From a virus (Duplodnaviria; Caudoviricetes), in the IMG/VR virus record IMGVR_UViG_3300029309_000054, positions 1 through 55,264 of that record: a stretch of 55,264 bases of DNA. One strand, given 5' to 3'. The translations under genes and the position numbers were made by a program. The number at the start of each line of letters is the position of its first letter. Positions within the stretch are counted from its first letter, which is position 1. Below, piece by piece: positions 19,341 through 41,184 of this stretch. Under the pieces are notes generated by a model. That model was not told the origin of the DNA and ran no database searches. It worked only from the letters and a program-made list of their open reading frames with translations.

Positions 19341-20879
19341 ATGTCAGTTGATACTTTTTCATCCATTTTTGACGGTCTAAAGATCGCCTATGGCACATAT
19401 AAAATCGAAAAACAGCAGGCTAACGGTAAGAACACGGGCAAAGCTGCTATCATACGCGAACCGCGTGACACGGCTCTTTGGGAGGGCCATCTGTCTGGTA
19501 AGGGACGGGGCATTGGCATCATCCCCATCAACGAGGACAACAAGTCTGTCTGGGGCTGCGTAGACGTTGACCAGTACCCGCTGGACCATAAGGTTCTAGT
19601 CGAGAAAATCCGCAAGCTGAAGCTGCCTCTTGTCGTCTGCCGGTCAAAATCCGGCGGGGCGCATTGCTTCTTGTTCACCACCGAATGGGTGGATGCCAAG
19701 GACATGCAGGCCACGCTGCAACAAATCTCCGCTGCGCTGGGCTACGGCGGCAGCGAAATATTTCCAAAACAGATTAAGCTCAACCTTGACCGCGACGATG
19801 TCGGCAACTTTCTGAACCTGCCGTACTACGACGCCGAGGACGGGCTGCGCTACGCCATCAAAGACGACGGCACCTCTGCCACCCTTGAGGAGTTCTTTGA
19901 GCTCTACGAGAACTACAAGCAGACGCCCGAGCAACTGACGGCGCTACAAGTGGGCGATCCTGAAGAGGTATTACCCATGAAGGACGGCCCGCCGTGCCTT
20001 CAGTTCCTGCTCAAGAACAAGATATCCGAGGGTGGCCGCAACAACGGGCTGTTCAACATCGGCGTCTATCTGCGTAAGGCATACCCGGATAGCTGGGAAT
20101 CGGAGATACTGACATACAACATGCAGTATCTGGAGCCGCCGCTGCCGCTCAGCGAGGTCAACATTGTTGCCAAGCAGATTGAGAAAAAAGACTACGCCTA
20201 CCGGTGTAGCGACTCTCCGATCAACGCGCACTGCAACAAGGACCTGTGCCAGACTCGCAAGCACGGCATCGGCGCAGCCATCCAAGGCGCGGCAATCGCG
20301 AACCTTCGCAAGTACAACTCAAACCCGCCGGTCTGGTTTCTGGATGTCAATGGCGAGCCCGTTGAGCTGGATACAGAGGCTCTGATGAGCCAACCTGCGT
20401 TTCAAAAGTGCTGCATGGAGCAGCTTAACTTTATGCCCCGGTCTGTTAGTAAGCAGGTTTGGGAAGGCCGCATCGGCGGGCTAATGAACGAGATGCGGGA
20501 CAACGAAAGCGCCATCATAGATGTCGCTGAAGACGCCAGCATAAACGGCCAGTTTTACGATTATTTGGAGGAGTTCTGCGCTCACATGCAAAAGGCCAAT
20601 GACAAGGAAGAGATACTGCTCAAGCGCCCATGGACGGACGAAGAAAGCGGCACCACTCTGTTCCGCCTGAAAGACTTTGAAGCATATCTAAAGCGCAACA
20701 AGTTCTTCGAGTACAAGACGCATAAAATAGCGCAGCGTTTGCGTGATTTGGGCGGACAAAGCTGCGTATTGAAAATTAAAGGCAGGCCCGTCCGGGTGTG
20801 GGAAGTACCCGCTTTCGATAACGCAGACGTAGACATTAACACGCCATCCTTTGGCAGCGGTGAAGGAGCACCTTTCTGA
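19341..20879 (+). CDS. Primase (AEP/PrimPol type) with PriCT domain
   Basis: WGCVDVD, RSKSGGAH and GNFLNLPY catalytic-type motifs; EGGRNNGLF PriCT-like motif. Confidence 0.8.
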   Translation: MSVDTFSSIFDGLKIAYGTYKIEKQQANGKNTGKAAIIREPRDTALWEGHLSGKGRGIGIIPINEDNKSVWGCVDVDQYPLDHKVLVEKIRKLKLPLVVCRSKSGGAHCFLFTTEWVDAKDMQATLQQISAALGYGGSEIFPKQIKLNLDRDDVGNFLNLPYYDAEDGLRYAIKDDGTSATLEEFFELYENYKQTPEQLTALQVGDPEEVLPMKDGPPCLQFLLKNKISEGGRNNGLFNIGVYLRKAYPDSWESEILTYNMQYLEPPLPLSEVNIVAKQIEKKDYAYRCSDSPINAHCNKDLCQTRKHGIGAAIQGAAIANLRKYNSNPPVWFLDVNGEPVELDTEALMSQPAFQKCCMEQLNFMPRSVSKQVWEGRIGGLMNEMRDNESAIIDVAEDASINGQFYDYLEEFCAHMQKANDKEEILLKRPWTDEESGTTLFRLKDFEAYLKRNKFFEYKTHKIAQRLRDLGGQSCVLKIKGRPVRVWEVPAFDNADVDINTPSFGSGEGAPF

Positions 20880-21454
20880 TGAAAGACCGTAACGATTACA
20901 TTTACGAGCAGCGCGTGGTGCAGCTTCGCACATATCAATCCATCGCGGATGAGGTGGGCCTGTCACGCCAGCGTGTGTGTCAAATTGTGGTCAACGTCTC
21001 ACAGCGCGTCCGCTGGGAGCAGGAGATTGAGGCTTTGCCCGACAAGCCTAGCAAGATGTGTCACCTCGTCTTGCCCCGCCGTGTCCGTAATTGCCTCAAA
21101 AACGAGGGCCTGTTCGATCTAACATTTGAGGAGTTTCTAAACCACGCCGAGCAGAAGGCGTTGGATAACATACCTAACCTTGGCAAACGCAGTGTCACGT
21201 TACTTGAAACGCGGCTCTCGGAACAGGGCCACATTATGCCCGAACGGTTGCGAAACAGGGCCAGTTTGTTGCGGGATGCCAGAGATTTCAAACGCGAAGC
21301 CCGGTATGCCAAGTACCGTCAGATCATGCGGTGGCGCAAAGAGCAGCGCAGCATCAAATGGATCGCTCACGAAGTGGACATGAGCTACGGCGGTGTTACT
21401 CAAGTCATTCAGCGATTCCTTGCTAACCCCGAGGCCCTCGATGGAAAAGAATAA
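20879..21454 (+). CDS. HTH protein with an RNA polymerase alpha-CTD-like domain
   Basis: TYQSIADEVGLSRQRVCQI (sigma region 4-like HTH); LPRRVRNCLKNEGL...IPNLGKRSV (alpha-CTD-like); second HTH SIKWIAHEVDMS. Confidence 0.7.
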   Translation: MKDRNDYIYEQRVVQLRTYQSIADEVGLSRQRVCQIVVNVSQRVRWEQEIEALPDKPSKMCHLVLPRRVRNCLKNEGLFDLTFEEFLNHAEQKALDNIPNLGKRSVTLLETRLSEQGHIMPERLRNRASLLRDARDFKREARYAKYRQIMRWRKEQRSIKWIAHEVDMSYGGVTQVIQRFLANPEALDGKE

Positions 21455-23137: not shown

Positions 23138-23424
23138 ACCGCAAAGAGATACTTGAGAAGGCAGAGAGCTTGGTCAACGGCCCTCGGGCCCAAGACTACG
23201 GTGATGCCTACGACAACCATGAGCGCATAGCCCAGATGTGGTCTGTTCTGCTCGACACCGACGTAAGTGTCTCACAAGTCTACCAATGTATGGTTGCGGT
23301 CAAGCTGGCAAGGCTTATAGTGACGCCAGACCACGAAGATAGCTGGATAGATATCTGCGGCTATGGCGCACTAGGAGGAGAAGGCAATGGCCTTACAGAT
23401 GGCGATGTTCGCACCAAAGAGTGA
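23134..23424 (+). CDS. DUF6378-like protein
   Basis: RAQDYGDA...RIAQMWS...KLAR...HEDSWIDICGY motif. Confidence 0.75.
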   Translation: MNRKEILEKAESLVNGPRAQDYGDAYDNHERIAQMWSVLLDTDVSVSQVYQCMVAVKLARLIVTPDHEDSWIDICGYGALGGEGNGLTDGDVRTKE

Positions 23425-25279
23425 GTGGGTTCCGCCCGCTGAGCTGCCAGACATCTTCGACGCCAAGCAGATCGCTATCGACGTTGAGACCAGAGACCCC
23501 AACATCAAGTCCAACGGCCCCGGCTGGCCGACAGGTGACGGTGAGGTGGTGGGCTATGCCGTAGCAGTTGACGGCTGGTCTGGCTACATACCTATCCGCC
23601 ACCTTGGCGGCGGCAACCTCGACGAGCGCATCGTCAACAAATGGCTCAAGAAAGTATTCGAGTGCCCCGCCGACAAGATCATGCACAACGCCCAGTACGA
23701 CGCGGGCTGGATCAAACAGATGGGCTTTACCATCAACGGGCGCATCATCGACACCATGCTGATCGCATCCTTGCTGGACGAGAACCGGTTCAGCTACAGT
23801 CTCAATGCTCTGTCCTACGACCTGCTGGGTGAGGTAAAGCAGGAGCGCACACTACAGGACGCGGCCCGCGAGTTTGGTCTCGATCCAAAAGCTGAGATGT
23901 GGAAGATGCCCGCTATGTATGTCGGGCCCTACGCACAGGTAGATGCGGAGCTGACACTCAAGCTCTGGAACCACCTGTCCGCACAACTGACCCAAGAACA
24001 GCTTTGGCCGATTGCCAACCTTGAGCTCAAGCTCCTGCCGTGTCTGATAGACATGACATGGCGCGGCGTCCGTGTTGATCAAGATCGTGTCGAGCGCACC
24101 CGCAACCACCTGATCAAGGAAGAGAAGGCCACGCTTGCCAAGATCAAGCACGTAGCTGGTCAGGATGTAGAGCTCTGGGCCGCAGCATCGATTGCAAAAG
24201 CCTTCGATAAGCTTAGCATCCCTTACCCGCGCACCGAGAAGAACGCCCCGTCCTTCACCAAGTCGTTTCTGGCGGACCACCCGCATGAGCTCGCGCAACT
24301 AATCGTCCGGGCCCGCAACCTGAACAAGACCAGCGGCACCTTCATCAACACCATTATGAAGCACTGCCATGCAGACGGACGCATCCATGGTCACATCAAC
24401 CAGATCAGATCGGATGACGGCGGCACCGTTTCGGGCCGCATATCCATGTCCAACCCCAACTTGCAACAAATCCCGGCCCGCGATCCTGAGCTCGGCCCCA
24501 TGATACGCAGCCTGTTTCTGCCGGAAGAGGGTGAGCAGTGGGCGGCGATTGATTTCTCGCAGCAGGAACCACGGATCTTGGTTCATTATGCTTATGTGTA
24601 TGGCCGGTCCCGCGGCGCACAGATGGCAGGAGTCGAGGAGTTTGTTACCGCTTACCGCGAGGACCCAGACATGGACTTCCACACCATGGTGGCAGAGATG
24701 GCTAACATCCCGCGTAAGCAGGCCAAAACAATTAATCTGGGCATGATGTACGGCATGGGCGTCAACAAGCTGTCCGACCAGCTCGACATCGATGTAGATG
24801 AAGCCAAAGGACTAGTCGGCCAGTACCACGACCGCGTCCCGTTTGTTAAGGGACTAATGAACGGCGTGATGAACAGCCTCAACAGCCGGGGCTCAAGCGG
24901 CTCTGTCCGCTCCATACTGGGCCGCAAGTGCCGGTTTAATCTCTGGGAGCCCGCGACCTTTGCCATGCACAAGGCACTGCCGTACCAAGATGCGCTCAAA
25001 GAGTACGGTGAGACCACCCGGTTGAAGCGGGCATACACCTACAAAGCTTTGAACCGTCTCATCCAAGCGTCGGCTGCGGACATGACCAAGCAGGCCATGG
25101 TGAATATTTATGAACAGGGACGCCTGCCCTTGGTGCAAATCCACGATGAAATCGCCATGTCCGTGAAAAACCGTGAAGATGCAAATACTGTTGCTGAAAT
25201 TATGGAAAATGCTGTACCGTTGGAGGTGCCAAGTAAATGCGATGTTGAGATCGGCCCAAGCTGGGGCGAAGCAAGCTAA
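23387..25279 (+). CDS. polA: Family A DNA polymerase with 3'-5' exonuclease
   Basis: Exonuclease motifs DVET, HNAQYD, YAQVD; motif A DFSQQEPR; motif B KTINLGMMYG; motif C QIHDE. Confidence 0.96.
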   Translation: MALQMAMFAPKSEWVPPAELPDIFDAKQIAIDVETRDPNIKSNGPGWPTGDGEVVGYAVAVDGWSGYIPIRHLGGGNLDERIVNKWLKKVFECPADKIMHNAQYDAGWIKQMGFTINGRIIDTMLIASLLDENRFSYSLNALSYDLLGEVKQERTLQDAAREFGLDPKAEMWKMPAMYVGPYAQVDAELTLKLWNHLSAQLTQEQLWPIANLELKLLPCLIDMTWRGVRVDQDRVERTRNHLIKEEKATLAKIKHVAGQDVELWAAASIAKAFDKLSIPYPRTEKNAPSFTKSFLADHPHELAQLIVRARNLNKTSGTFINTIMKHCHADGRIHGHINQIRSDDGGTVSGRISMSNPNLQQIPARDPELGPMIRSLFLPEEGEQWAAIDFSQQEPRILVHYAYVYGRSRGAQMAGVEEFVTAYREDPDMDFHTMVAEMANIPRKQAKTINLGMMYGMGVNKLSDQLDIDVDEAKGLVGQYHDRVPFVKGLMNGVMNSLNSRGSSGSVRSILGRKCRFNLWEPATFAMHKALPYQDALKEYGETTRLKRAYTYKALNRLIQASAADMTKQAMVNIYEQGRLPLVQIHDEIAMSVKNREDANTVAEIMENAVPLEVPSKCDVEIGPSWGEAS

Positions 25280-25337: not shown

Positions 25338-25386
25338 TCTTGTATCTCTGCCACTTGTCCTATATATTCCCTTACAGGAGGTGTAA

Positions 25387-25527
25387 ATGGATACATCTAA
25401 ATGGAAATCTGTGCTCGTACCCATCGAGGTGTACGAACAGATTCGTAAGATAGCTCGCCAAGAAGGGCGGACCATTAGTGGTCAGCTCCGGATCATGTGG
25501 GATATCTACAAAAAACACACATCCTGA
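25387..25527 (+). CDS. Ribbon-helix-helix (Arc/CopG-like) regulator, 46 aa (not in ORF track)
   Basis: MDTSKWKSVLVPIEVYEQIRKIARQEGRTISGQLRIMW fits beta-alpha-alpha with a GRT turn; AGGAGGT RBS. Confidence 0.75.
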   Translation: MDTSKWKSVLVPIEVYEQIRKIARQEGRTISGQLRIMWDIYKKHTS

Positions 25528-25616
25528 CGGCTGAATAACGAGTGTCAATTCAGTTGACATCTTTTTTTAGCTATAGTATGGGATAACTTCTATCAACTCT
25601 TATACGGGAGATTTGA

Positions 25617-26021
25617 ATGTCTTATCTAAAACATCTTTTCGAGGCCATCGACCAAATGGCAAGCGAATTTGGGGACACGCCGCCAACCAGTGTCAAAACT
25701 GTCACCGCTCTGTCCGTGCTTTGTCAGATTGATATCGAAAAACTTGAGGCTAAGAAGACCCTTGGTGAGCACAAGCCGCTTATGCAAAACCCCGAAGAAA
25801 TGGCGAAAGCTCTTGAGCCCGTCATGCGGGTCAAAGGAAATGTGGTGAAAAAAAGGAGATGGAAGCGGAAATATTGCTTATACTCAGGGGAGCGCCTGAC
25901 TGGGAAGCAGCGCAAGTTTGCTTCTCGGAAATATGCTCAAGCTTACTGGAAGGAGCACAACCGGGACAAGGTGAACGCTTACCAGAAGAAGTGGCAACAA
26001 AAGAAGAAGAAAGATGCTTGA
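25617..26021 (+). CDS. Hypothetical protein with basic C-terminus
   Basis: Own TTGACA promoter; ACGGGAG RBS. Confidence 0.65.
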   Translation: MSYLKHLFEAIDQMASEFGDTPPTSVKTVTALSVLCQIDIEKLEAKKTLGEHKPLMQNPEEMAKALEPVMRVKGNVVKKRRWKRKYCLYSGERLTGKQRKFASRKYAQAYWKEHNRDKVNAYQKKWQQKKKKDA

Positions 26022-26442
26022 TGCAGCTTTAGTCTGTCTCGCTACGGCGGTCTACTTTGAGTCCAGAGGCGAACCTTTCGTCGGACAGTCCGCCGTAGCC
26101 CACGTTGTGTTGAACCGGGTGAACGACACTCGGTTCCCCGACGACGTTTGCTCCGTCGTTAAACAGGGCCCCACCTACTCTTGGAAACCTGATTTCCCTA
26201 TTCGTAACATGTGCCAATTCAGTTACTATTGTGACGGCAAGTCTGACATGCCAACCGAAGAAGAAGCATGGCAGTCCGCGGTCCTCGCGGCTTTTGGAGC
26301 TATGACTGAACGCACTTATGACCCCACCGACGGCGCAACTCACTATCATGCTGATTATGTCCAGCCAGAATGGGCCGCAGTCAAATACAAAACTGTTCGC
26401 ATCAACGATCATATTTTTTACAAATGGGAGGGCAACCGATGA
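26014..26442 (+). CDS. Cell-wall hydrolase, SleB/Hydrolase_2 family
   Basis: CLATAVYFESRGE, VAHVVLNRV, CQFS, GATHYHADYV and HIFY motifs. Confidence 0.92.
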   Translation: MLDAALVCLATAVYFESRGEPFVGQSAVAHVVLNRVNDTRFPDDVCSVVKQGPTYSWKPDFPIRNMCQFSYYCDGKSDMPTEEEAWQSAVLAAFGAMTERTYDPTDGATHYHADYVQPEWAAVKYKTVRINDHIFYKWEGNR

Positions 26443-26597
26443 AGTGCCCAGAATGTGGCGGCGAAGGCGAATGTGAATACGAGGTAGAAGTCCCCGCGCC
26501 TATGGCGTGGAGCGGCGGCTGGCTCGAAGGACGCATCATGGAATGTCAACTATGTGAAGGAACAGGAGAAGTCGATGATTGTGAGGACGAAGAATAG
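26439..26597 (+). CDS. Small DnaJ-type zinc-finger protein
   Basis: CPECGGEG and CQLCEGTG (CxxCxGxG). Confidence 0.7.
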   Translation: MKCPECGGEGECEYEVEVPAPMAWSGGWLEGRIMECQLCEGTGEVDDCEDEE

Positions 26598-26766
26598 AGA
26601 GCTCCAGTATCCCACCATCGGGGATCCGGGCATGATTCAAAAACGTCTGGACGCGGGCCGTTGCCCAAAGTGCGACACGCAACTCACAGAGCCCACGCGC
26701 TGCGGCTCTTGCAAGCTTCAACTTCCCGGAAATTTAACTCCTAAAAAGTCCTTGTCTTTCCCATAA
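26575..26766 (+). CDS. Small Zn-finger protein
   Basis: CPKC...CGSC; AGGAG RBS. Confidence 0.6.
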   Translation: MIVRTKNRELQYPTIGDPGMIQKRLDAGRCPKCDTQLTEPTRCGSCKLQLPGNLTPKKSLSFP

Positions 26767-26784
26767 GTTCGCGTATATTAAGAG

Positions 26785-26830
26785 CGTTCCCGTAGTTGGG
26801 CCCCGGAGAGAAATCTCCGGGGCTTTTTTT
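26785..26830 (+). ncRNA. Candidate ~45-nt antisense sRNA with anti-RBS seed GUUCCCGUAGUUGG
   Basis: Promoter TTGTCT(26752)-N16-TATATT(26774); no ORF; perfect 10-bp terminator hairpin 26800-26823 plus T7; seed complementary to several phage RBS regions. Confidence 0.6.
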
Positions 26831-26833
26831 GTG

Positions 26834-26861
26834 TTGACTATGTATAGGATAAGTCTTATAT
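26834..26861 (+). promoter_or_regulatory. Sigma70-like promoter with operator-like box (copy 1)
   Basis: TTGACTATGTATAGGATAAGTCTTATAT; 25/28 identical to 27885-27912. Confidence 0.7.
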
Positions 26862-26886
26862 GTGGGCTGAACCACGGGAGTTTCTC

Positions 26887-27888
26887 ATGCTCATCTATTT
26901 AGCCACCAATAAGATTAACGGTATGCAATATGTCGGAGCCACGACTCGGAGCTCACTTGCACCCAGAGTGCGGGAACACTTTAAGTTTGCGGAAAGAAAA
27001 ACCAGAGCACGGGGATCGTTAGCAAACGCCATACGAAAGTACGGCCAAAAAAATATTTCTTTTGAAGTGTTAGAGCGCGTAACCGATATCAATGTTTTAG
27101 GCGAATGCGAGAAGAGGTGGATTGACAACCTAAATACGATGTACCCAAACGGGTATAACATTAAGACAGGGGGTATGCCTAAAGAGATGCCTCATGTCAG
27201 CCGAAACAAAAGCTACACCGTTGAAGGTGTGCAATATGACAGCTTAATGTCTTTAGCGGATGCTTATGACATGTGCCATTACAAACTTAGGCATCGTCTG
27301 TTGCGCTCTTCTATCAAATGGTCTGTAGAACAGGCGTTGGATCTAGCCCCGCCTCCAAAAAGCGACCCCGTAAAATACTGCAAACCTTTAGAGGTAGACG
27401 GGCATACCTTTCGTTCAAAGGCCGCCGCCGCTCGACATTATGGTGTTCCGGTAAGAGTTTTTAGAGCAAGACTTGGTAAGGGCTGGCCGTTAAAAGAGGC
27501 TCTGGGCATAAAAGAACGACCAAACCAGTGTAAAACGGGGACTACTAATAAAAAACGGCCTCTCAGAAAAACGCGGATCACGGTTCAAGGCACTGAGTAT
27601 TATAGCGTAGCTCATGCCGCAGAAACTTTAGGAACAAAAGCTGGTCTTGTAACTCAACGACTCAAGCGAGGATGGACAAAAGAACAAGCTTTTGGTTTAG
27701 CCCCGCCGCCGGTTATCAAAAAGAGGGGAATGGAGTTTCTTGGATATTCTTCCATAACAGCCGCGGCAAAAGAAAATAACATCAACACCACCACGCTTTT
27801 TCAAAGGTTGAATAACGGCTGGTCGCCGGAAGATGCGCTGTACACACCAATAACTCCAAATGACGGAAGCAGGCGTTGGACTGCTTGA
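26887..27888 (+). CDS. GIY-YIG homing endonuclease with repeated C-terminal DNA-binding modules
   Basis: LIYLATNKINGMQYVG, conserved R, E and GYN; repeated S(l/k)AAAA...RLxxGWxxExA modules. Confidence 0.88.
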   Translation: MLIYLATNKINGMQYVGATTRSSLAPRVREHFKFAERKTRARGSLANAIRKYGQKNISFEVLERVTDINVLGECEKRWIDNLNTMYPNGYNIKTGGMPKEMPHVSRNKSYTVEGVQYDSLMSLADAYDMCHYKLRHRLLRSSIKWSVEQALDLAPPPKSDPVKYCKPLEVDGHTFRSKAAAARHYGVPVRVFRARLGKGWPLKEALGIKERPNQCKTGTTNKKRPLRKTRITVQGTEYYSVAHAAETLGTKAGLVTQRLKRGWTKEQAFGLAPPPVIKKRGMEFLGYSSITAAAKENNINTTTLFQRLNNGWSPEDALYTPITPNDGSRRWTA

Positions 27889-27912
27889 CTATGTATGCGA
27901 CAAGTCTTATAT
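27885..27912 (+). promoter_or_regulatory. Sigma70-like promoter with operator-like box (copy 2)
   Basis: TTGACTATGTATGCGACAAGTCTTATAT. Confidence 0.7.
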
Positions 27913-27939
27913 ACAGGTTAACCAACTAGGGAGAACCAA

Positions 27940-28260
27940 ATGACAAAAACCTTTGAATTGCCCCCTATCGCCGTCGATCTGGTGAACCGGGTAAGCGGCA
28001 TTTCCAGCATCGTCGGCGACGTTACCGCCATTGGGGGCGATGCGCGGATCATGGCTTGGGCAGGAAAGAGTGACTATTGGCTGTGGCTTGTGTTGGACGA
28101 CGAAAAGCAGTTTCGTGTCCTAATCGATGTCGAGGAAGCGCCGGATGATAAGCTGTATAATATCGTCGGCTATTGCAACTTTCACAATATCCAACACGAG
28201 TTTGCTGGGGAAGACCACCGAGATGAGCTCGGTGTGATTGGGAGAGACTACGATGCGTAA
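27940..28260 (+). CDS. Hypothetical protein
   Basis: AGGGAG RBS downstream of the promoter. Confidence 0.7.
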   Translation: MTKTFELPPIAVDLVNRVSGISSIVGDVTAIGGDARIMAWAGKSDYWLWLVLDDEKQFRVLIDVEEAPDDKLYNIVGYCNFHNIQHEFAGEDHRDELGVIGRDYDA

Positions 28261-29099: not shown

Positions 29100-29134
29100 A
29101 AGGGCCAGATCAATGATCTGGCCCTTGGCTTTTT
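29100..29134. terminator. Probable bidirectional intrinsic terminator
   Basis: AAGGGCCAGATC-AAT-GATCTGGCCCTT between convergent genes. Confidence 0.7.
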
Positions 29135-29435
29135 AATCGTTAACTACAATCCTACCTTTGATCTTGATGCCTGTGTGAAATTCCTCGCGGTCATCGAACC
29201 ACTGGATACACTTAGCTATGATCGTGCTTTGTTTGGTTTTGTAGTTTCGACCAAAGGTAAGCAACGGGACGTCATAGTCGTAAAGCTGTTTCTCTACGTC
29301 TCCGCCGCCCACCTCGTAGAAGACTAAACCGCTATCGAACGGTCCCTCCCCCAAGATGAACGACCTTCCGGTCACGTCACATTTGAAGCTGGCACTAAAG
29401 TACCCGTCAATTTGTATATCCAAGTTAAGAGACAT
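29133..29435 (-). CDS. Hypothetical protein (inverted cassette)
   Basis: Leader CAACTAAGGGAAAGGAAAACA-ATG; operator-like box upstream on the minus strand. Confidence 0.65.
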   Translation of the reverse strand: MSLNLDIQIDGYFSASFKCDVTGRSFILGEGPFDSGLVFYEVGGGDVEKQLYDYDVPLLTFGRNYKTKQSTIIAKCIQWFDDREEFHTGIKIKGRIVVND

Positions 29436-29635
29436 TGTTTTCCTTTCCCTTAGTTGTGAAGGTATAGCTTTACCTTACATAAGAGTATATCATATAATCC
29501 CATACATGTACATGTGACATAGTGTCGCACCTAAAGTGTCAAATTATTGACGCATATTGTCGCATACGGTATAGGATAAGTCGCATATGGGATACAGGTT
29601 ATAACCCATTGATTTAAAATAAAAAGATAAGAAGA

Positions 29636-29675: not shown

Positions 29676-29714
29676 AGAAGAACGGGAACTTCAACCAACA
29701 CGGGAGGGCTAACC

Positions 29715-30443
29715 ATGCCTGTTAAATTACACCCCATCAACCGCGGCTCACGGGACAACCGCTATTGCGGCCCCGCCGTGGTTAGCTTCATCACTGGCAA
29801 AAACACCAGTGAGGTCGCGACGTTCATCCGTAATCGCTACCGTAACGGCAAAGCTGTTCGCGGGACTTACCTCCACGAGGTGGCAGGCGCTCTGTCGGCG
29901 CTGGGCTACAAGCTCAAAGGGGTCAGGTGGTCGGGCAACCTATCACCAACTCTGGCGGGTTGGCTCAAAGCCAACAAAGACTTGCGATCCGCGGGCCGCG
30001 TCTTTCTGGTCAATGCCGGTAACCACTGGCAACTGATCTCTGGACGCAAATATGCCTGCGGGCGGATTGGAGAAATCGTCTCCATCCGTGACCCACGGGT
30101 CAAGCGGCGGTGCCGGGTGACAGATGTCTGGGAGGTGAACCGTATGCCGGAGGCGGCAAAGGACAAGTGGAAGACACATGTCACAGACCGCAAGCCTCGG
30201 AACACGGGTAATTCCTACCGGGTGCGTAAGATACTGCGAGACAACCCGCAGTACGGCTTCAGCTACGAAGTAGAGTGGCGCGTCGATAAAACAAACGTCT
30301 ACTACGTTTCCATGAGCAACGAGCTTGAGGAAAAGGCGTTTGAGATGCAACACCATCTGTGTGACGATCACTACTGTCACGGTCTGGACGAGGTCCTGAC
30401 CCGGCTGACAGACATGCTGGAGTTCGCAAAACAGCACCACTAA
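29715..30443 (+). CDS. Hypothetical protein with a possible papain/C39-like Cys-His fold
   Basis: YCGPAVV and NAGNHWQLI motifs; GGGAGG RBS. Confidence 0.65.
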   Translation: MPVKLHPINRGSRDNRYCGPAVVSFITGKNTSEVATFIRNRYRNGKAVRGTYLHEVAGALSALGYKLKGVRWSGNLSPTLAGWLKANKDLRSAGRVFLVNAGNHWQLISGRKYACGRIGEIVSIRDPRVKRRCRVTDVWEVNRMPEAAKDKWKTHVTDRKPRNTGNSYRVRKILRDNPQYGFSYEVEWRVDKTNVYYVSMSNELEEKAFEMQHHLCDDHYCHGLDEVLTRLTDMLEFAKQHH

Positions 30444-30449
30444 TCAACA

Positions 30450-30476
30450 GGGTCCCGCTTCGGCGGGGCCCTTTTT
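30450..30476 (+). terminator. Intrinsic terminator
   Basis: GGGTCCCGC-TTCG-GCGGGGCCC-TTTTT. Confidence 0.8.
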
Positions 30477-30720
30477 GGTTACGGTTACATATATAGGGAG
30501 AAAATTAAAAAAATAAAAAACACAAAAAATATGGTGTAACCGGTGTAACTTATGTAACCGTACCTTGTAATCCTTACTCAGCAAGGATTACAGAAGGTCA
30601 GAGAGGTTACATATTTGGTTACACCATGGTTTTCAAAAATGTAACCAAGGAAATGACCTTAAAGGGGGGTTCGCGGGCTTTTTTAAAAAAATATTTTTTG
30701 CTCTATATAAGTAACCCCTG
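30477..30720. repeat. Nested inverted-repeat, iteron-like region (candidate replication origin)
   Basis: Multiple GGTTAC/GTAACC copies around the palindrome TGTAATCCTT-N7-AAGGATTACA; AT-rich flanks; non-coding. Confidence 0.6.
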
Positions 30721-30763
30721 TAAAAAGGATGGGAGTTGACCTTTTTAACTGGAGAATACCCGT

Positions 30764-31378
30764 ATGCCCTCAAAAGCTGTCGTGAAGAAAGAAACCCGGG
30801 GCCGTAAGCGAGCCACCGTCAATCACCCGCTGACCCGCAAGCAAGAGCTTTTTGTAAAGGAACTGGTCAGTAAGGACGGCCAGATTACTTTGAGAGAGGC
30901 GGCTATCAATGCTGGTTACTCTGCCACGTCGGCTCACACGCGGGCATATGAACTGACCAATCCAAACATTTCGCCGCATGTCGTGGCGGCCATTCAGTCC
31001 TATCGACGCGAACTGGACGAAAAGTACGGAATCACGTTTCATCGGCATATCCGTGATCTTCAAAATATTCGGGATCTAGCCTTGCAAAACGGCGCTTACT
31101 CTGCCGCCGTTCAAGCGGAATATCGCCGGGGTCAAGCGCAGGGCGACATCTATGTAAGCAAATCTGAAATCCGTCATGGGTCTATCGACAGCATGAGCAA
31201 GGACGAGGTCTTGAAAGCTTTGGAAGAGATAAAGGACAGTTATGCCCCAATCACCATCGACATCACACCCGAAGAGAAAAACACCGGTAATCGCGACAAA
31301 GCGAGAGGGCGGCTTTTACAAGCAAGTGAAGGAAGCGGCGCAGAGGTCGAACAGGAAATTATTACTGACCCGAATTGA
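30764..31378 (+). CDS. terS: Terminase small subunit
   Basis: LTRKQELFVKE...AAINAGYS...AYEL N-terminal HTH motif of phage TerS. Confidence 0.8.
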   Translation: MPSKAVVKKETRGRKRATVNHPLTRKQELFVKELVSKDGQITLREAAINAGYSATSAHTRAYELTNPNISPHVVAAIQSYRRELDEKYGITFHRHIRDLQNIRDLALQNGAYSAAVQAEYRRGQAQGDIYVSKSEIRHGSIDSMSKDEVLKALEEIKDSYAPITIDITPEEKNTGNRDKARGRLLQASEGSGAEVEQEIITDPN

Positions 31379-31703: not shown

Positions 31704-31751
31704 TCCCATAATAATGGGACATCGTTAATCAACTATGGGAGTAAGAGCGAT

Positions 31752-32099
31752 ATGGTAGAGGACAAACAAACCTTGCTTGCTTGGCTGGCAAATGCCTTGA
31801 AAGATTCACCTGTGGACTTTTTAGAGGTTTATGTCGGAGATGAAAAGGACGGTCAAGTTTATGTGCGTTTTGAAAACGTACCGGAGAGGGAAAAAATGAA
31901 AAAGTATAACAGCGTTGCATATCTTCCCTTTTCCATTCATCACGACCGGGAAAACGGCGAAGATATAACCCCGGAAATGTTGCGCGAAGCTTTCAATAAT
32001 CGAACCCTGACCCTGTCGAATCAGGAATTATGGGAAGCTTGCGGCGGGGATTGCTACGACACAATCGAAAATGAACCTTTAGCGGAAGCTTCCGCCTGA
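31752..32099 (+). CDS. Hypothetical protein, possibly two fused small genes
   Basis: Own promoter and RBS; internal in-frame GGAGAGGG RBS plus ATG at 31896. Confidence 0.6.
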   Translation: MVEDKQTLLAWLANALKDSPVDFLEVYVGDEKDGQVYVRFENVPEREKMKKYNSVAYLPFSIHHDRENGEDITPEMLREAFNNRTLTLSNQELWEACGGDCYDTIENEPLAEASA

Positions 32100-32230: not shown

Positions 32231-32289
32231 CTTGCAATGGTATGCGATAAGGCCCATATAAAAGACAACTGAAACGAACGGGGGCAATC

Positions 32290-32510: not shown

Positions 32511-32544
32511 ACTGGCCCGCCCTGACCGGCGGGCCTTTTCTTTT
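32511..32544 (+). terminator. Intrinsic terminator, duplicated at 34676-34709
   Basis: ACTGGCCCGCCCTGACCGGCGGGCCTTTTCTTTT. Confidence 0.8.
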
Positions 32545-32617
32545 AAAATTTCTATTTGCCAAAATATGCGAATATATGAGATAAGCAAAACAGATATAAA
32601 CAACGGGAACAAAAACG

Positions 32618-33352
32618 ATGTTAAAAACTGTAGAGCTAAGCACGGCGAAAAAGACTAGCGGTTGCGCCGTAACCTATCGCGCCGGGTCAGCTAATAAATT
32701 TGATACTTGCCCGGCATCTTGCAAGCTTAACCCTAGCGGGCGCGGTTGCGGCGCTGGCGAAATTGACCACGACTATCTGGACGCTGTATTGGACGCGAAA
32801 CCGAAACGGGGGTTTTCGTTTGGTTATTCTCATTTTGATCCGTTATTTTGGGCGCACAAATTGCGGGCGGGCAAAACGGTTTTAAATTACAGCGCCGACA
32901 GTCTGGCCGCCGCCTATGCTATTTTTTCAAACAAGGTCGCGCCGGTTGTCGTCGTCGTAAAGGATAGTTTTTGGAAGAATGGCAAAAACGCCACAATAGA
33001 CCGCGACGACATGCCGACGCCGCCGGTTCCGGTTATACGTTGCCCGGCGGAATATAACCCGGCGGTAAATTGCCGGAATTGCGGGGCGGAAAAAGGGCCA
33101 TTGTGCGCCCGTCTGGACCGGTCTTTTATCGTCGGATTTACAGCACACGGGGCCAGCAAGAAAAAGGCCGCAACCGACGACCCGGGCGGATGCTATGCCG
33201 CTGGCGGCAATGTCGCGTTGCATTGGCAGGCGACGACCGAAACGCCAGACACTGGCGAAACTGACGGCGAAAAGCTTTTGCGGTTTGCCCGGGGGTTGCC
33301 GCCCGGTTCTGTATTGCGCCACCATATCGCCGGGGATATTGGCCGCGAATAG
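32618..33352 (+). CDS. Cys-rich protein, Gp88-like (possible Fe-S / radical-SAM-related)
   Basis: TCPASC, CPAE...CRNC...LC, GGCYA and RHHIAGD motifs. Confidence 0.6.
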   Translation: MLKTVELSTAKKTSGCAVTYRAGSANKFDTCPASCKLNPSGRGCGAGEIDHDYLDAVLDAKPKRGFSFGYSHFDPLFWAHKLRAGKTVLNYSADSLAAAYAIFSNKVAPVVVVVKDSFWKNGKNATIDRDDMPTPPVPVIRCPAEYNPAVNCRNCGAEKGPLCARLDRSFIVGFTAHGASKKKAATDDPGGCYAAGGNVALHWQATTETPDTGETDGEKLLRFARGLPPGSVLRHHIAGDIGRE

Positions 33353-33401: not shown

Positions 33402-33516
33402 GGTCTGAAAGAAAATTTAAAAATTTCTAGACATATATAGGCCAAAATGCGATAAACCGCATATGGCCCTTTTTTCAGGGGTTCGGGCCGCCCCACAATT
33501 ACGGGAAACCAAAACG

Positions 33517-34656
33517 ATGAACCACAATATTGAAAACAGCAAAAACACCTTAACCCGCCTTTTGGAAAAGGTGCGCGACGACGCGGCCAGAAAGGCCGAC
33601 TATATTGCGCCGACGCATGAATTGCAGAAGACGACCGGCGACGACGGGACGGCCCGCATCACAATAGAGCAAAGCCGGGGCGTGCCGACTAAAGAGCTGG
33701 TCGTTAATCCGGTCGCGTTCGGGCAAATGGCCAGCGATGCGGGAATTGACGTCCGGACGGCCCGCCGGTTGCAAGAAAACTACGCCCCGCAATTCGATGG
33801 CCTGATAAATGCAATCTGGCAAAACGAGCCTAAGGTTCGCATGTTGCGGACGTTTGAAAACTACGCCCCGTTTTCTGATTTGGGCGAATGCCGGGCCATT
33901 GTGTCGGATAAGTTTAAGACGTTCGACCATGTAAACCTGTGCAATAGCGCCTTGCCCCAACTGATGGACAGCCCGGCGCAATTACAGGTTGTGAATGCCG
34001 AAATAACGGACCGCCGCCTTTATCTGCGTTTCCGGTCGCTGGTTCAAACTGGCGAAGGGGCGAACGTCGGCGACGTTATGGCGAACGGTATCGGCCTGCA
34101 AAACAGCGAAACGGGCGCGGGTTCGGTTTCGGTTTATCAGATTGCATGGACGCTGGCTTGTTTGAACGGGATGCAAACGCAAAACAAAACCCGGTCCAGC
34201 CACATCACCAGCGCCCGCGATAGCGACGATTGGGGCCTGTTGTCGGACGCCGCAAAAGATGCCGACAACCATGCACTAGAATTGAAAATCCGCGATCTAG
34301 TCGGCGTTTATTCTAGCCGGGACGCGTTTGACGGCGTACTGGACGCCATGCGGGCCGCCGCTGGCGACGTGATTGACGGCGAGGCAATCGACAAAACCGA
34401 CGTTGTGCAAAATTTGGGCAAGGTAATGCAACTGACCAAAAAAGAAACGGGCGACGTTTTAAACGGGTTGCTGGATACCATCGGCCAAGCCGGTTACGAA
34501 AACGACCGGCCCCTGTCCCGGGCGACGTTGGTTAATGCCGTGACGGCGGTTGCCAATAAAGCCGACGCCGACGATGTCGACATGTGGCAGGCCCGGGGTG
34601 GCCAGCTGCTGGCCATGAAGCCCGCCGATTGGGGACGGGTCGCCGTCGCCGCATAG
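33517..34656 (+). CDS. DUF932-like protein
   Basis: RAIVSDKF and GIGLQNSETGAGSVSV...LACLNGM match the DUF932-type NS-G...CxNG motif; ATG 33517 follows an ACGGGAA RBS. Confidence 0.75.
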   Translation: MNHNIENSKNTLTRLLEKVRDDAARKADYIAPTHELQKTTGDDGTARITIEQSRGVPTKELVVNPVAFGQMASDAGIDVRTARRLQENYAPQFDGLINAIWQNEPKVRMLRTFENYAPFSDLGECRAIVSDKFKTFDHVNLCNSALPQLMDSPAQLQVVNAEITDRRLYLRFRSLVQTGEGANVGDVMANGIGLQNSETGAGSVSVYQIAWTLACLNGMQTQNKTRSSHITSARDSDDWGLLSDAAKDADNHALELKIRDLVGVYSSRDAFDGVLDAMRAAAGDVIDGEAIDKTDVVQNLGKVMQLTKKETGDVLNGLLDTIGQAGYENDRPLSRATLVNAVTAVANKADADDVDMWQARGGQLLAMKPADWGRVAVAA

Positions 34657-34675: not shown

Positions 34676-34709
34676 ACTGGCCCGCCCTAACCGGCGGGCC
34701 TTTTCTTTT
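34676..34709 (+). terminator. Intrinsic terminator, copy of 32511-32544
   Basis: 33/34 identical to 32511-32544. Confidence 0.8.
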
Positions 34710-34763
34710 GTGGGAATATATGCGACAACGGGGCATCACTAACTGATAACGGGAATAAAACAG

Positions 34764-35084
34764 ATGATAAATAAAATCATATTTGGCGACCATCAAATCC
34801 CCGTCTGGCATGATAAAGACGGCGTTCGGCATTGGTTGGACGGGTCGGCGACATATGCTGCCGATAAAGACGGCGACGTTATGCGATTGGTCCCCCTCGG
34901 TTGGCAAGCCGCTGGCGATTTAGTGAAGCGAAAGCCTGACGCGAAAACCGTTTACGTCGTCAATTTTCGCGAACGCAAAAAGCCGGGCAAGCCTGCGGTC
35001 TATTCGCTTTCCCCGTTTGACGATATGAACCGGGAAATTTTCCTGAAAGAAACGACGCCCGTTTACGTCGGTTTTACGTTCTAG
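34764..35084 (+). CDS. Hypothetical protein (single-gene cassette)
   Basis: TATGCGACAA box and ACGGGAA RBS upstream; terminator downstream. Confidence 0.7.
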   Translation: MINKIIFGDHQIPVWHDKDGVRHWLDGSATYAADKDGDVMRLVPLGWQAAGDLVKRKPDAKTVYVVNFRERKKPGKPAVYSLSPFDDMNREIFLKETTPVYVGFTF

Positions 35085-40458: not shown

Positions 40459-40488
40459 CCCTTATGAGGGGACTACGGGAACACAACT

Positions 40489-41184
40489 ATGGATCCGGTA
40501 ACTGCTATGGCGACTGCTTCGGCAGCGTTTGGGGCACTTAAAAAAGGTTTTGCAATAGGTCGGGACATTGAGTCTATGGCCTCGGACTTGTCCAGATGGA
40601 TGGGTGCGCTTTCCGACCTTGACCAAGCTGAAAAAGAAGCCAAAAACCCACCTATATTTAAAAAACTGTTTTCTGGTCAATCGGTTGAGCAGGAAGCGGT
40701 AATTGCGTTTGCCAACAAACAAAAGGCGCAGCAACAGCGATATGAGCTTCAACAGTGGATCAGTCTGACCTTGGGCAAGTCCAAGTGGGACGAGTTGGTC
40801 CGAATGGAAGGTCAGATACGTAAGCGTAGGCAGGAGACTTTGTACGCTCAAAGGGAGCGGCGTCGTAAGTTTGTCGAGATTGTTGCTTGGGTTGTGATGA
40901 TAAGCGTAGGTATAGCTGTTCTTACGTCCTTTGTTCTTTTGCTCAAATCACACTCAGCAAACGCTTCGGATCAAATGACTATCTGTCGAAAAGTTAAATG
41001 TGAGAAGCTTGAAAACAGGCAAATGGTCTGCGTATTTAAAGGCCAGAACAATACGATTGAGTCTATGTTTTTTAGTCAGGGGGAGTTTGTTCCTAACGAG
41101 TATCTCTGCAAATACGATCCAAACGCTCGTAGGGACCGGACTATACAGGAGACTTTGAAGGAAATACGGGAGAGTCAAAAGTGA
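40489..41184 (+). CDS. Membrane protein of the lysis region
   Basis: Coiled coil, one TM helix and a Cys-containing C-terminal part. Confidence 0.7.
   Translation: MDPVTAMATASAAFGALKKGFAIGRDIESMASDLSRWMGALSDLDQAEKEAKNPPIFKKLFSGQSVEQEAVIAFANKQKAQQQRYELQQWISLTLGKSKWDELVRMEGQIRKRRQETLYAQRERRRKFVEIVAWVVMISVGIAVLTSFVLLLKSHSANASDQMTICRKVKCEKLENRQMVCVFKGQNNTIESMFFSQGEFVPNEYLCKYDPNARRDRTIQETLKEIRESQK

What the first reader, a model, noticed from the sequence alone, without database searches (positions are those of the whole stretch)
26752..26830. Candidate phage sRNA whose seed is antisense to a ribosome-binding leader shared by about 9 phage genes
Seen: an ORF-less unit with promoter TTGTCT-N16-TATATT, a 14-nt stretch GTTCCCGTAGTTGG (26786-26799) and a perfect terminator. 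The stretch's reverse complement, CCAACTACGGGAAC, matches the RBS region of many genes. CAATTACGGGAA (33496, DUF932-like) and CAACTATGGGAG (31730) pair fully if G:U is allowed. Other matches: CAACTAAGGGAA (minus strand 29445-29456), CCAACTA-GGGA (27922), CCAAC-ACGGGA (29695), AACAACGGGAAC (32599), AACCACGGGA (26870), TACGGGA (25603), ACGGGAA (34749), and an exact 11-mer ACTACGGGAAC (40472) before the first lysis-region gene. Most structural genes instead use ordinary GGAG/AGGAGG RBSs. Inference: one trans-acting RNA shuts off translation of the early cassettes, and perhaps times lysis, through a phage-specific RBS address. I do not know of this circuit being described.
Basis: partly seen in the sequence, partly recalled or inferred. 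Interest (0 to 1): 0.9.

Follow-up and report, generated by a model that had tools for sequence, protein, structure and literature searches.

The report
Phage small RNA masking ribosome sites
A tiny non-coding RNA gene in a marine phage, kept in its relatives, can pair with the ribosome-landing sites of about ten of the phage's own genes, and the RNA and those sites have changed together in evolution, which suggests an RNA switch for these genes.

Summary
At 26752-26830 a sigma70-like promoter, the 14-nt stretch GTTCCCGTAGTTGG and a strong intrinsic terminator follow the stop codon of an upstream ORF. The stretch pairs at -15 kcal/mol or better with 11 of 79 start regions (0 of 1500 permutations do as well).

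The unit belongs to an undescribed RNA family with no Rfam match. I found it in 64 of 80 loci anchored on related DNA polymerase genes. The layout is promoter, variable 5' hairpin (absent here), invariant single-stranded core CCGUAGU, variable terminator hairpin. Both hairpins show compensatory changes.

Seed and targets covary. One clade has seed UCUCCGUAGU and start regions AACUACGGAG; the rest have UUCCCGUAGU and AACUACGGGA. One further genome changed GUAGU to GUAAU, and its orthologous leader changed ACUAC to AUUAC.

In the GGAG clade the adjacent gene lacks the motif, which argues against a purely cis hairpin.

Best reading (about 0.58): a trans-acting phage sRNA that occludes a shared start-region motif. 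There is no transcript evidence. Repression, timing and a role in lysis are inferred or unsupported.

I rate it a new variant of a known kind (phage antisense RNAs such as P1/P7 c4).

The parts
26752..26779 (+). sigma70-like promoter TTGTCT-16-TATATT of the small RNA. The -35 overlaps the last codons of ORF 26575-26766.
   Evidence: 9 of 12 matches. In 20 type-A relatives CGCGTAT-TT is invariant, while the 3 nt after the stop codon and the 6-nt discriminator vary. Promoter-like matches stand at the equivalent place in the other subfamilies.
26786..26799 (+). Seed GUUCCCGUAGUUGG. The family-invariant core CCGUAGU lies at 26789-26795.
   Evidence: It is predicted unpaired (P = 0.81).
26800..26830 (+). 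Intrinsic terminator: a 10-bp G+C-rich stem, a GAAA loop and U7.
   Evidence: Compensatory changes occur in relatives. The covariance model hits 26771-26832 at 38.1 bits, E = 2e-6.
40469..40482 (+). Target start-region motif of gene 40489-41184 (GGGACTACGGGAAC). It is the best duplex, at -21.5 kcal/mol.
   Evidence: The ortholog in the complete relative G001 keeps CTACGGGAAC.
27922..27935 (+). Target motif of gene 27940-28260 (CCAACTAGGGAGAA), -18.8 kcal/mol.
33495..33508 (+). Target motif of gene 33517-34656 (ACAATTACGGGAAA), -18.6 kcal/mol.
31729..31742 (+). Target motif of gene 31752-32099 (TCAACTATGGGAGT), -18.5 kcal/mol.
29695..29706 (+). Target motif of gene 29715-30443 (CCAACACGGGAG), -17.7 kcal/mol.
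32597..32610 (+). Target motif of gene 32618-33352 (TAAACAACGGGAAC), -16.8 kcal/mol.
34745..34756 (+). Target motif of gene 34764-35084 (GATAACGGGAAT), -16.2 kcal/mol.
29444..29457 (-). Target motif of the minus-strand gene 29133-29435 (ACAACTAAGGGAAA), -15.1 kcal/mol.
26868..26881 (+). Weaker target motif of the GIY-YIG homing endonuclease gene 26887-27888 (TGAACCACGGGAGT), -12.8 kcal/mol. It pairs with the seed in cis in the fold of a read-through RNA.
25598..25611 (+). Weaker target motif of gene 25617-26021 (TCTTATACGGGAGA), -14.2 kcal/mol.

Best explanation
26752-26830 is the gene of a small non-coding RNA. It is about 45 nt in this genome and about 70 nt, with an extra 5' hairpin, in most relatives. 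Host RNA polymerase would transcribe it from its own sigma70-type promoter, and an intrinsic terminator would end it.

Its single-stranded seed, U(U/C)(C/U)CCGUA(G/A)U, pairs in trans with a start-region motif, AACUACGGGA(A/G). The GGGA(A/G) of the motif serves as the Shine-Dalgarno sequence. About ten phage genes share the motif, mostly the promoter-gene-terminator cassettes at 26.8-35 kb, plus 40489 and the primase gene. Pairing covers the Shine-Dalgarno sequence, so the expected effect is a block of ribosome binding, with or without mRNA decay.

Shown here: the anatomy; conservation of the seed; RNA-type compensatory changes in both hairpins; complementarity above controls; and co-variation of seed and start regions.

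Inferred: that the RNA is made as a discrete transcript; that pairing happens in the cell; that the outcome is repression; and when in infection it acts.
For: 1. Anatomy. Promoter, unpaired seed and a strong terminator are present.

2. Complementarity. 11 of 79 start regions pair at <= -15 kcal/mol. This was reached by 0 of 1500 seed permutations and by 17 of 1500 (count) and 10 of 1500 (sum) core-fixed permutations.

3. Conservation.
- All 20 contigs found through an upstream anchor that does not include the seed carry the identical seed and hairpin.
- Among 20 type-A sequences there are no variable columns in the seed, the hairpin and the first four T. Ten of the 20 columns between the stop codon and the seed vary.
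- The seed is kept in a second upstream context whose homology breaks exactly at the 5' end of the seed.

4. Family.
- 64 of 80 DNA-polymerase-anchored loci carry a unit; 11 of the other 16 end less than 900 nt after the polymerase gene.
- In 33 distinct units the seven seed-core columns CCGTAGT are invariant; the other seven invariant columns lie in the terminator stem and the T tail.
- The terminator has 6 of 10 pairs with changes on both sides.
- With both hairpins given, 96.9% of cells are paired and 7 pairs changed on both sides, against 1.6 in shuffles (0 of 500 shuffles reach it).
- A covariance model built without window-type sequences finds exactly one plus-strand hit in the window (26771-26832, E = 2e-6) and one in the complete relative.

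5. Promoter. A promoter-like match of >= 8 of 12 occurs in 42 of 48 distinct units, against 18% of random 75-nt windows. A match of >= 9 occurs in 16 of 48, against 3.4%. Read off the table by eye, the -10 sits so that the start falls near the base of the 5' hairpin or at the seed; no tool located the hairpin bases.

6. Covariation.
- Loci with seed ..CCCG.. have 50 unique GGGA and 9 GGAG start-region contexts. Loci with seed ..UCCG.. have 2 and 13 (Fisher 3.7e-7).
- L154 has seed UUCCCGUAAUAGA. Its orthologous leader reads TCTATTACGGGA, against ATCAACTACGGGA in L146, L147 and L150.
- In a cross-matrix, the own seed is the best of 12 for the window, L154, L186 and L196.

7. The motif is tied to start codons. 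The commonest distance from motif to start codon is 7 nt (34 of 70, or 31 of 53 with a second classifier). The motif also occurs at internal start sites of operons (40489, 41181, 19341).
Against: - No transcript evidence. The three RNA runs laid gave only a few contigs and none over the unit.
- The promoters score only 8-9 of 12. The promoter scan of the window is not above shuffles.
- The motif match alone is not significant genome-wide.
- Only two covariation events were seen. The GGAG seeds lie in a single clade of the polymerase tree, L154 is a single genome, and the Fisher test is not corrected for relatedness.
- There is no covariation in the 3' flank of the seed. The own seed ranks 2nd to 11th in 8 of 12 genomes.
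- Substitutions in the motif show no clear wobble bias (32 transitions, 45 transversions).
- In some relatives AACUAC stands directly behind a possible -10 hexamer and might not be transcribed.
- Folds of read-through RNA pair the seed in cis with the next leader.
- The host is unknown, as is any chaperone dependence. Repression is inferred only from overlap with the Shine-Dalgarno sequence.
Confidence: 0.58

Rival explanations
1. The RNA and its pairing with the start-region motif are real, but the outcome is not shut-off of the phage's own early genes. It could stabilise or activate the messages. It could instead silence the same-address genes of a co-infecting relative, that is, RNA-based exclusion between specificity groups.
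For: All the evidence for pairing applies. The seed and motif types form groups (GGGA, GGAG, AUUAC) that would not cross-react well (GGAG seeds score 3-4 kcal/mol worse on GGGA genomes, and the reverse). P1/P7 c4 RNA sets heteroimmunity in this way (review PMC12197685, section 7 read).
Against: Pairing covers the Shine-Dalgarno sequence, which normally blocks initiation. No sign of lysogeny was seen: no integrase turned up among the proteins scanned, though not every ORF was scanned. There are no data on co-infection.
Confidence: 0.12
2. The motif is a DNA site. A phage or host DNA-binding protein recognises AACTACGGGA next to promoters, and the 'seed' is one more copy of that site in the opposite orientation. 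A change in the protein's specificity would change all copies together.
For: This reading predicts the same covariation. In some relatives the motif lies directly behind a -10-like hexamer. Early promoters carry a repeated operator-like element. The genome encodes an RHH protein and a protein with sigma-r4/HTH hits.
Against: The distance from motif to start codon is tight, with a mode of 7 nt. The distance to the -10 ranges from about 5 to more than 30 nt, and the motif also occurs inside operons without a promoter (40489, 41181, 19341). In most units the inverted copy lies between two RNA hairpins that keep pairing through compensatory changes; the window type and type C lack the 5' hairpin. 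It always lies between a promoter and a terminator.
Confidence: 0.1
3. The element acts in cis. In transcripts that read through the terminator, the stretch pairs with the ribosome site of the next gene and keeps it untranslated. Only transcripts from that gene's own promoter are then translated, as recalled for T4 lysozyme and I-TevI.
For: Minimum-free-energy folds of 26786-26900 and of a relative without the endonuclease (L008) close a helix between the seed and the next leader. In most close relatives the next leader is CCAACTAGGGAG, about 75 nt downstream.
Against: In the GGAG clade the gene directly after the terminator has a plain GGAGG-type site without the motif. The matching start regions there lie 1.4-4.8 kb away. 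The seed stays the same whether the next leader is CCAACTAGGGAG, GAACCACGGGAG or GAACTACTACGGGAG. The terminator is strong. The next gene has its own good promoter.
Confidence: 0.08
4. It is only the terminator and 3' end of the upstream operon (25617-26766). The complementarity is a chance or leftover inverted copy of a leader, without function.
For: The unit starts 20 nt after a stop codon. The motif match alone is not significant genome-wide. The promoter is weak.
Against: The seed is invariant while neighbouring non-coding bases vary. It is kept across subfamilies whose hairpins and promoters differ. It covaries with start regions.
Confidence: 0.05
5. The main target is in the host, for example host messages or the conserved 16S rRNA stretch that the motif CUACGGGAGG resembles (resemblance recalled, not tested). 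The phage start regions would then merely share an SD-like sequence.
For: The seeds of one subfamily (CUCUCCCGUAGU) would pair with about 10 nt of that rRNA stretch, as recalled. Other phage sRNAs act on host RNAs (PMC12197685, section 2 read).
Against: The family-invariant U after GUAG matches the phage motif AACUAC but not the recalled rRNA stretch. The GGAG-clade seed fits its own start regions but not that stretch. The host is unknown, so nothing could be tested.
Confidence: 0.04

Closest known systems
c4 antisense RNA of phages P1 and P7
   Same: It is a short phage-encoded RNA that pairs in trans with the ribosome-binding region of a phage message and blocks translation. A few seed/target bases set its specificity and differ between relatives (PMC12197685, section 7 read).
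   Different: No match to any Rfam family, C4 included if that family is held there as I recall. c4 controls one operon (ant) in temperate phages and, as recalled, is cut out of the same transcript. Here one seed faces about ten separate start regions, the unit has its own promoter and terminator, and no lysogeny genes were seen.
Trans-acting phage or prophage sRNAs with a terminator-type 3' end (DicF of Qin; VpdS of VP882; PreS of lambda)
   Same: They are small RNAs with a single-stranded seed and an intrinsic terminator, they have several targets, and they pair at or near ribosome sites. VpdS acts on phage and host messages (PMC12197685, section 2 read). DicF is recalled.
   Different: Those act mainly on host messages and depend on Hfq. 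Here the targets are a sequence 'address' shared by the phage's own genes, and chaperone dependence is unknown.
T4 RegB endoribonuclease and RegA translational repressor
   Same: They are phage-encoded means of inactivating many early messages through a motif in their start regions. RegB cuts GGAG in Shine-Dalgarno sequences. RegA binds many start regions (PMC3014915, passages read).
   Different: Those are proteins. Here the recognising molecule would be an RNA that reads the motif by base pairing.
sar RNA of P22 and OOP RNA of lambda (cis-encoded antisense RNAs)
   Same: They are small phage RNAs that pair with a phage message. sar covers the ant ribosome site (PMC12197685, section 2 read).
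   Different: Those are transcribed from the strand opposite their single target. This seed lies on the same strand as its targets and kilobases away from most of them.

Membership tests
Trans-encoded base-pairing small RNA | Own promoter directly upstream | tested here: inconclusive
   Sequence only. The window has TTGTCT-16-TATATT. A match of >= 8 of 12 occurs in 42 of 48 distinct units, against 18% of random windows. No start site has been mapped.
Trans-encoded base-pairing small RNA | Intrinsic terminator with a U tail at the 3' end | tested here: met
   Compensatory changes are seen.
Trans-encoded base-pairing small RNA | Conserved single-stranded seed | tested here: met
   CCGTAGT is invariant in 33 distinct units. 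The mean unpaired probability is 0.63, and it exceeds 0.7 in 17 of 37 units. Some of the low values arise because the folded stretch included promoter bases.
Trans-encoded base-pairing small RNA | Complementarity to several messages above chance | tested here: met
   11 of 79 start regions pair at <= -15 kcal/mol, reached by 0 of 1500 permutations.
Trans-encoded base-pairing small RNA | Seed/target covariation | tested here: met
   Two events. They are not corrected for relatedness. None is seen in the 3' flank.
Trans-encoded base-pairing small RNA | Discrete transcript; regulation of targets; chaperone binding | not testable with these tools
   The RNA runs held only contigs and gave no cover of the unit.
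C4 antisense RNA family (P1/P7), as held in Rfam (recalled) | Match to the family's covariance model | tested here: not met
   There were no Rfam matches at gathering score in the window or in 10 related loci. That C4 is among the 4227 families is recalled.
Cis-encoded antisense RNA (sar/OOP type) | Transcribed from the strand opposite its target, overlapping it | tested here: not met
   The seed and 10 of the 11 best targets lie on the plus strand at separate places.
Ribosome-site sequestration in read-through transcripts (T4 type) | The complement lies upstream of the regulated ribosome site on one transcript, throughout the family | tested here: not met
   It is met in the window type. It is not met in the GGAG clade, where the adjacent gene lacks the motif.

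The most novel reading that the evidence does not exclude
This marine phage group carries a re-addressable RNA switch. The small RNA's seed and a start-region 'address' on about ten genes switch together (GGGA to GGAG; GUAGU to GUAAU). That creates specificity groups in which a phage can silence its own genes and the early genes of co-infecting relatives with the same address, but not those of relatives with another address. This would be RNA-based exclusion or heteroimmunity in apparently lytic phages. A bolder add-on: because the address resembles a conserved 16S rRNA stretch (recalled), the RNA might also touch host ribosomes.
Probability: 0.12. Interest if true: 0.9.

Novelty: new variant of a known kind. 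Interest (0 to 1): 0.75.

Why it matters
Phage antisense RNAs that block a ribosome site are known, but each acts on one operon of a temperate phage. The known multi-target phage sRNAs mostly act on host messages.

Here one seed faces a sequence address shared by about ten of the phage's own genes. The RNA belongs to a family with no Rfam entry, found in 64 of 80 related viral contigs sampled from marine metagenomes.

If the reading is right, it is an RNA counterpart of T4 RegB/RegA. It gives a natural, compact and re-addressable translational switch, and it offers a way to define the early regulon of uncultured marine phages from sequence alone.

The natural seed/target variants already supply the compensatory-mutation design for a direct test.

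Tried and rejected
- DNA similarity to deposited phages found no match, near or distant. The closest deposited relatives by DNA polymerase are DSL-LC04 at 57% and pelagiphage HTVC023P at 52%. DSL-LC04 uses ordinary AAGGAG sites and has no unit, so it gave no covariation data.
- RNA evidence. One search of sequencing runs and one laying of three RNA runs and one DNA run were made. The RNA runs gave 29, 3 and 1 laid contigs, none over 26438-27071. This says nothing either way.
- The hairpin-only patterns also picked up unrelated terminators (3 of 27 stretches; 8 of the 12 new stretches of 39; read).
- Cell-wall hydrolase as anchor. Below 64% identity the genomic contexts were unrelated.
- The metagenome scan used too short a pattern. 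Only 14 of the 120 stretches returned were family members and none had a new seed core.
- The weight-matrix test of the reverse-complemented seed was not significant alone.
- The wobble-bias test was inconclusive.
- The own-versus-other seed matrix gave no signal for the 3' flank.
- Idea that the motif is a promoter for a phage single-subunit RNA polymerase (its GGGAGA end recalled T7-group promoters). No such polymerase appeared among the large proteins scanned, and the distance from the motif to the -10 hexamers varies. Rejected.
- Classifying all CTACGG(GA/AG) sites. The two classifiers disagree on the split between start regions (70 or 53) and reverse complements of units (6 or 61). Many of the 60 that labelled 'other' are, by eye, reverse complements of units. 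22 of 136 were 'other'. I use only the spacing mode from this.
- Literature. Three searches listed no paper on such a unit. PMC12197685 was read in its sections 4 and 9 (headed '2.' and '7.'). PMC3014915 was read in passages. PMC10149686 was searched for terms only: 'sRNA', 'small RNA', 'non-coding', 'promoter' and 'terminator' each occur 0 times. Supplements were not opened.
Full report
**What the window is.** The window is a whole 55,264-bp virus record. It has no DNA match among deposited phages. Its DNA polymerase (23387-25279) is 57% identical to that of phage DSL-LC04 and 52% to that of pelagiphage HTVC023P. All sequencing runs that hold it are marine metagenomes. The genome has three parts relevant here:
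- a replication module (SNF2 helicase, primase, helicase, polymerase);
- a run of small promoter-gene-terminator cassettes at about 25.3-35.5 kb;
- packaging and structural genes (terminase 35635, portal 37865).

**The observation.** ORF 26575-26766 ends at 26764-26766. TTGTCT (26752) and TATATT (26774) stand 16 nt apart. The stretch GTTCCCGTAGTTGG occupies 26786-26799. A 10-bp G+C-rich hairpin (26800-26823) and seven T follow. The 47-nt RNA folds with the stretch mostly unpaired (P = 0.81 for the core). Downstream, a good promoter (TTGACT-17-TATATG) drives a GIY-YIG homing endonuclease gene (26887-27888). A near-copy of that promoter then drives gene 27940.

**Is the complementarity more than chance?**
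- Against 79 start regions (-30..+10), the stretch forms duplexes of -15 kcal/mol or better with 11.
- Of 1500 permutations of the stretch, none reached that count or the sum of the ten best.
- With the anti-Shine-Dalgarno-like core TTCCCG held fixed, 17 of 1500 reached the count and 10 of 1500 the sum. These include redraws of the stretch itself.
- Of 2499 random genomic 14-mers, 11 did; the listed best of them are very G+C-rich.
- The match therefore extends beyond the Shine-Dalgarno part.
- A weight matrix of the leaders holds only about 10 bits. The reverse complement of the stretch ranks 6th of 110,502 positions, with 0.3-1.4 such sites expected. With a relative's leaders it ranks 21st, with 15.7 expected. 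On this measure alone, one inverted copy somewhere in the genome would not be remarkable.

**Conservation among close relatives.**
- The 23-mer spanning the stretch and the hairpin start occurs in 24 IMG/VR contigs.
- A search with an upstream anchor that excludes the stretch found 20 contigs. All 20 carry the identical stretch and hairpin.
- Among 20 such sequences there are no variable columns in the stretch, the hairpin and the first four T.
- In the same set, 10 of the 20 columns between the stop codon and the stretch vary, as do roughly a quarter of the upstream coding columns. Within that spacer CGCGTAT-TT, which includes the -10, is invariant.
- A second context (L007, L015, L017; L037 = L108, L112, L116, L117; compared) has another gene upstream and a free-standing promoter, TTGCAA-16-TATATT. 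It has a 5' hairpin before the same stretch. Homology to the window type breaks exactly at the 5' end of the stretch. One allele of it has a hairpin with compensatory changes.
- Most relatives lack the endonuclease gene.

**A family of units.** Eighty loci anchored on polymerase genes of 78-99% identity were scanned.
- 57 carry a unit with the core YCCGTAG followed by a hairpin and a T run.
- Seven more carry a unit with an altered core or a more distant terminator (L154, L180, L181, L191, L195, L209, L215).
- Eleven end less than 900 nt after the polymerase gene.
- Of the last five, two end about 1.4 kb after the polymerase gene, one has nothing recognisable, and two have an uncertain variant.

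The plan is constant: a promoter-like pair of hexamers, a 5' hairpin, a single-stranded core, a terminator hairpin and a U run. At least six unrelated 5' hairpin sequences occur. The window type and type C (L205, L211, L214) have none.
- In 33 distinct units the seven seed-core columns CCGTAGT are invariant; the remaining seven invariant columns lie in the terminator stem and the T tail.
- The terminator has 6 of 10 pairs with changes on both sides.
- In 17 units of one subfamily, with both hairpins given, 96.9% of cells are paired. Seven pairs changed on both sides, against 1.6 in shuffles (0 of 500 reach it). Slid controls fall to 24-61% paired.
- A covariance model built from those 17 units, none of window type, finds one plus-strand hit in the window (26771-26832, 38.1 bits, E = 2e-6). 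It finds one in the complete relative and none in DSL-LC04.
- No Rfam family matches the window or ten related loci.
- Promoter-like matches of >= 8 of 12 stand in front of 42 of 48 distinct units, against 18% of random windows. By my reading of the table, the expected start falls near the hairpin base or at the seed; no tool located the hairpin bases.

**Covariation with start regions.** The motif in front of genes is AACTACGGGA(A/G), ending about 7 nt before the start codon (mode 7 nt in 34 of 70 sites, or 31 of 53). Among 278 unique GGGA(A/G) start contexts, the six bases before it match AACTAC with at most two mismatches in 76 (27%). About 4% is expected.

- *First event.* Ten loci have the seed UCUCCGUAGU instead of UUCCCGUAGU. 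Their start regions read AACTACGGAG(G/A). Unique contexts count 50 GGGA and 9 GGAG in the CCCG loci, against 2 and 13 in the UCCG loci (Fisher 3.7e-7; examples; a looser count). Both changed seed positions are matched by Watson-Crick changes in the motif. These ten loci lie in a single clade of the polymerase tree (SH-aLRT 97). This is one event, and the test is not corrected for relatedness.
- *Second event.* L154, nested among UUCCCG genomes, has the seed UUCCCGUAAUAGA. Its leader reads ATAAATCTTATCTATTACGGGAGAATGATATG. Three relatives with seed ..GUAGUGAG read ATAAATCTTATATCAACTACGGGAGAATGATATG. That gives L154 a 12-nt contiguous match to its own seed.
- *Cross-matrix.* With 12 seeds against 12 genomes, the own seed is best for the window, L154, L186 and L196. 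It ranks 2nd to 11th for the other eight, which differ only in the 3' flank. The working seed is therefore about 10 nt.
- *Further variants.* Seeds with CUCUGUAG (L180, L181, L191, L209, L215) would still pair with CUACGGAG through a wobble. Their contigs end too early for a test.

**Trans or cis?** Folds of read-through RNA do pair the seed with the next leader. In the GGAG clade, however, the gene directly after the terminator has a plain GGAGG-type site without the motif, and the matching start regions lie 1.4-4.8 kb away. The seed is also unchanged whatever the next leader is. A purely cis role does not fit the family.

A DNA-site reading would also predict covariation. It fits poorly with three things: the fixed distance to start codons, the motif inside operons (40489, 41181, 19341), and the RNA-type compensatory changes around the inverted copy.

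One caveat remains. In some relatives AACUAC lies directly behind a possible -10 hexamer, so its presence in the message depends on an unmapped start site.

**What is not shown.** No RNA was seen, because the RNA runs were uninformative. Repression is inferred from overlap with the Shine-Dalgarno sequence. Timing is unknown. The suggested link to lysis has no support: gene 40489 follows the portal gene and has no family match, and the cell-wall hydrolase gene lies upstream of the unit.

**Comparison with what is known.** The nearest known system is the c4 RNA of P1/P7. It pairs in trans with a ribosome-binding region, and its specificity differs between relatives (PMC12197685, section 7). This unit matches no Rfam family and differs from c4 in having many targets and its own promoter and terminator. 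In function it resembles T4 RegB and RegA, proteins that inactivate many early messages through their start regions (PMC3014915, passages). Three literature searches listed no description of such a unit. A paper on related roseophages does not contain the words sRNA, promoter or terminator. Supplements were closed and not seen.

**Verdict.** Its statements on shut-off timing and lysis are not supported. I put 0.58 on a trans-acting repressing sRNA and 0.12 on the same pairing with another outcome. I put 0.10 on a DNA site, 0.08 on a cis hairpin, 0.05 on an inert terminator and 0.04 on a host target.

Noticed in passing
window 26831-27939: A GIY-YIG homing endonuclease gene (26887-27888) sits between two near-identical copies of an early promoter (26834 and 27885). 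Its stop codon overlaps the -35 of the second copy. Most close relatives lack the gene and go straight from the terminator to the 27940 homolog. Some relatives in both upstream contexts have it.
   Followed up: partly
window 25340-25616: A 46-aa ribbon-helix-helix protein gene (25387-25527; RHH_5/Arc hits) is followed by a 17-bp palindrome, TGTCAATTCAGTTGACA (25543-25559). The palindrome overlaps the -35 of the promoter of the 25617-26766 operon. It looks like a repressor with its operator.
   Followed up: no
window 26834-26862, 27885-27913, 29572-29590, 32243-32262 and related loci: Early promoters share an element, TATG(C/G)GA(T/C)AAGTC(T)TATAT, with weak dyad symmetry. The spacers of the small-RNA promoters in relatives carry its reverse-complement-like CCCATAC. 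This may be a common regulator site.
   Followed up: no
window 32514-32535 and 34679-34700: Two terminator hairpins are identical except for one loop base (GGCCCGCCCT(G/A)ACCGGCGGGCC). Each follows the motif CTGGCC. They are repeated cassette boundaries, reminiscent of the promoter-stem-loop modules recalled from T4-type phages.
   Followed up: no
window 30470-30760: An A+T-rich stretch lies upstream of the small terminase gene (30764-31378). It holds many direct and inverted copies of GGTTACA/TGTAACC. It may be a packaging or replication site.
   Followed up: no
window 20879-21454: A 191-aa protein has weak hits to sigma70 region 4, the alpha-subunit C-terminal domain and HTH domains. It may be a phage transcription factor. 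DSL-LC04 has a small gene annotated as a sigma factor at the same place.
   Followed up: no
loci L179, L182, L186, L188-L190, L192, L196, L203, L213: In the GGAG clade the unit's terminator is followed directly, without a promoter, by a gene with an ordinary Shine-Dalgarno site. The terminator loop carries a conserved GGTTGCCCCCG, also seen in type C units. The unit may double there as a leader or attenuator of that gene.
   Followed up: partly
loci L197 (about 7860) and L208 (about 8166): In the sister clade of the GGAG group, UCCGUAGG sits in the loop of a short hairpin (GGACGC..GCGUUU) in front of a distant terminator. It may be a further variant of the family with the seed in a loop.
   Followed up: no
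start-region motif, e.g. G001 52877 (L132): The motif CUACGGGAGG coincides, from memory, with a universally conserved 16S rRNA stretch used for general bacterial probes and primers. This is not tested here because the host is unknown.
   Followed up: no
window 25593/26809 (run X9): One DNA contig of a metagenome run joins 25593 to 26809, skipping 1215 bases (short side 28 letters; what lies between is not known). A relative may lack or replace the 25617-26766 operon, or it may be a repeat artefact.
   Followed up: no
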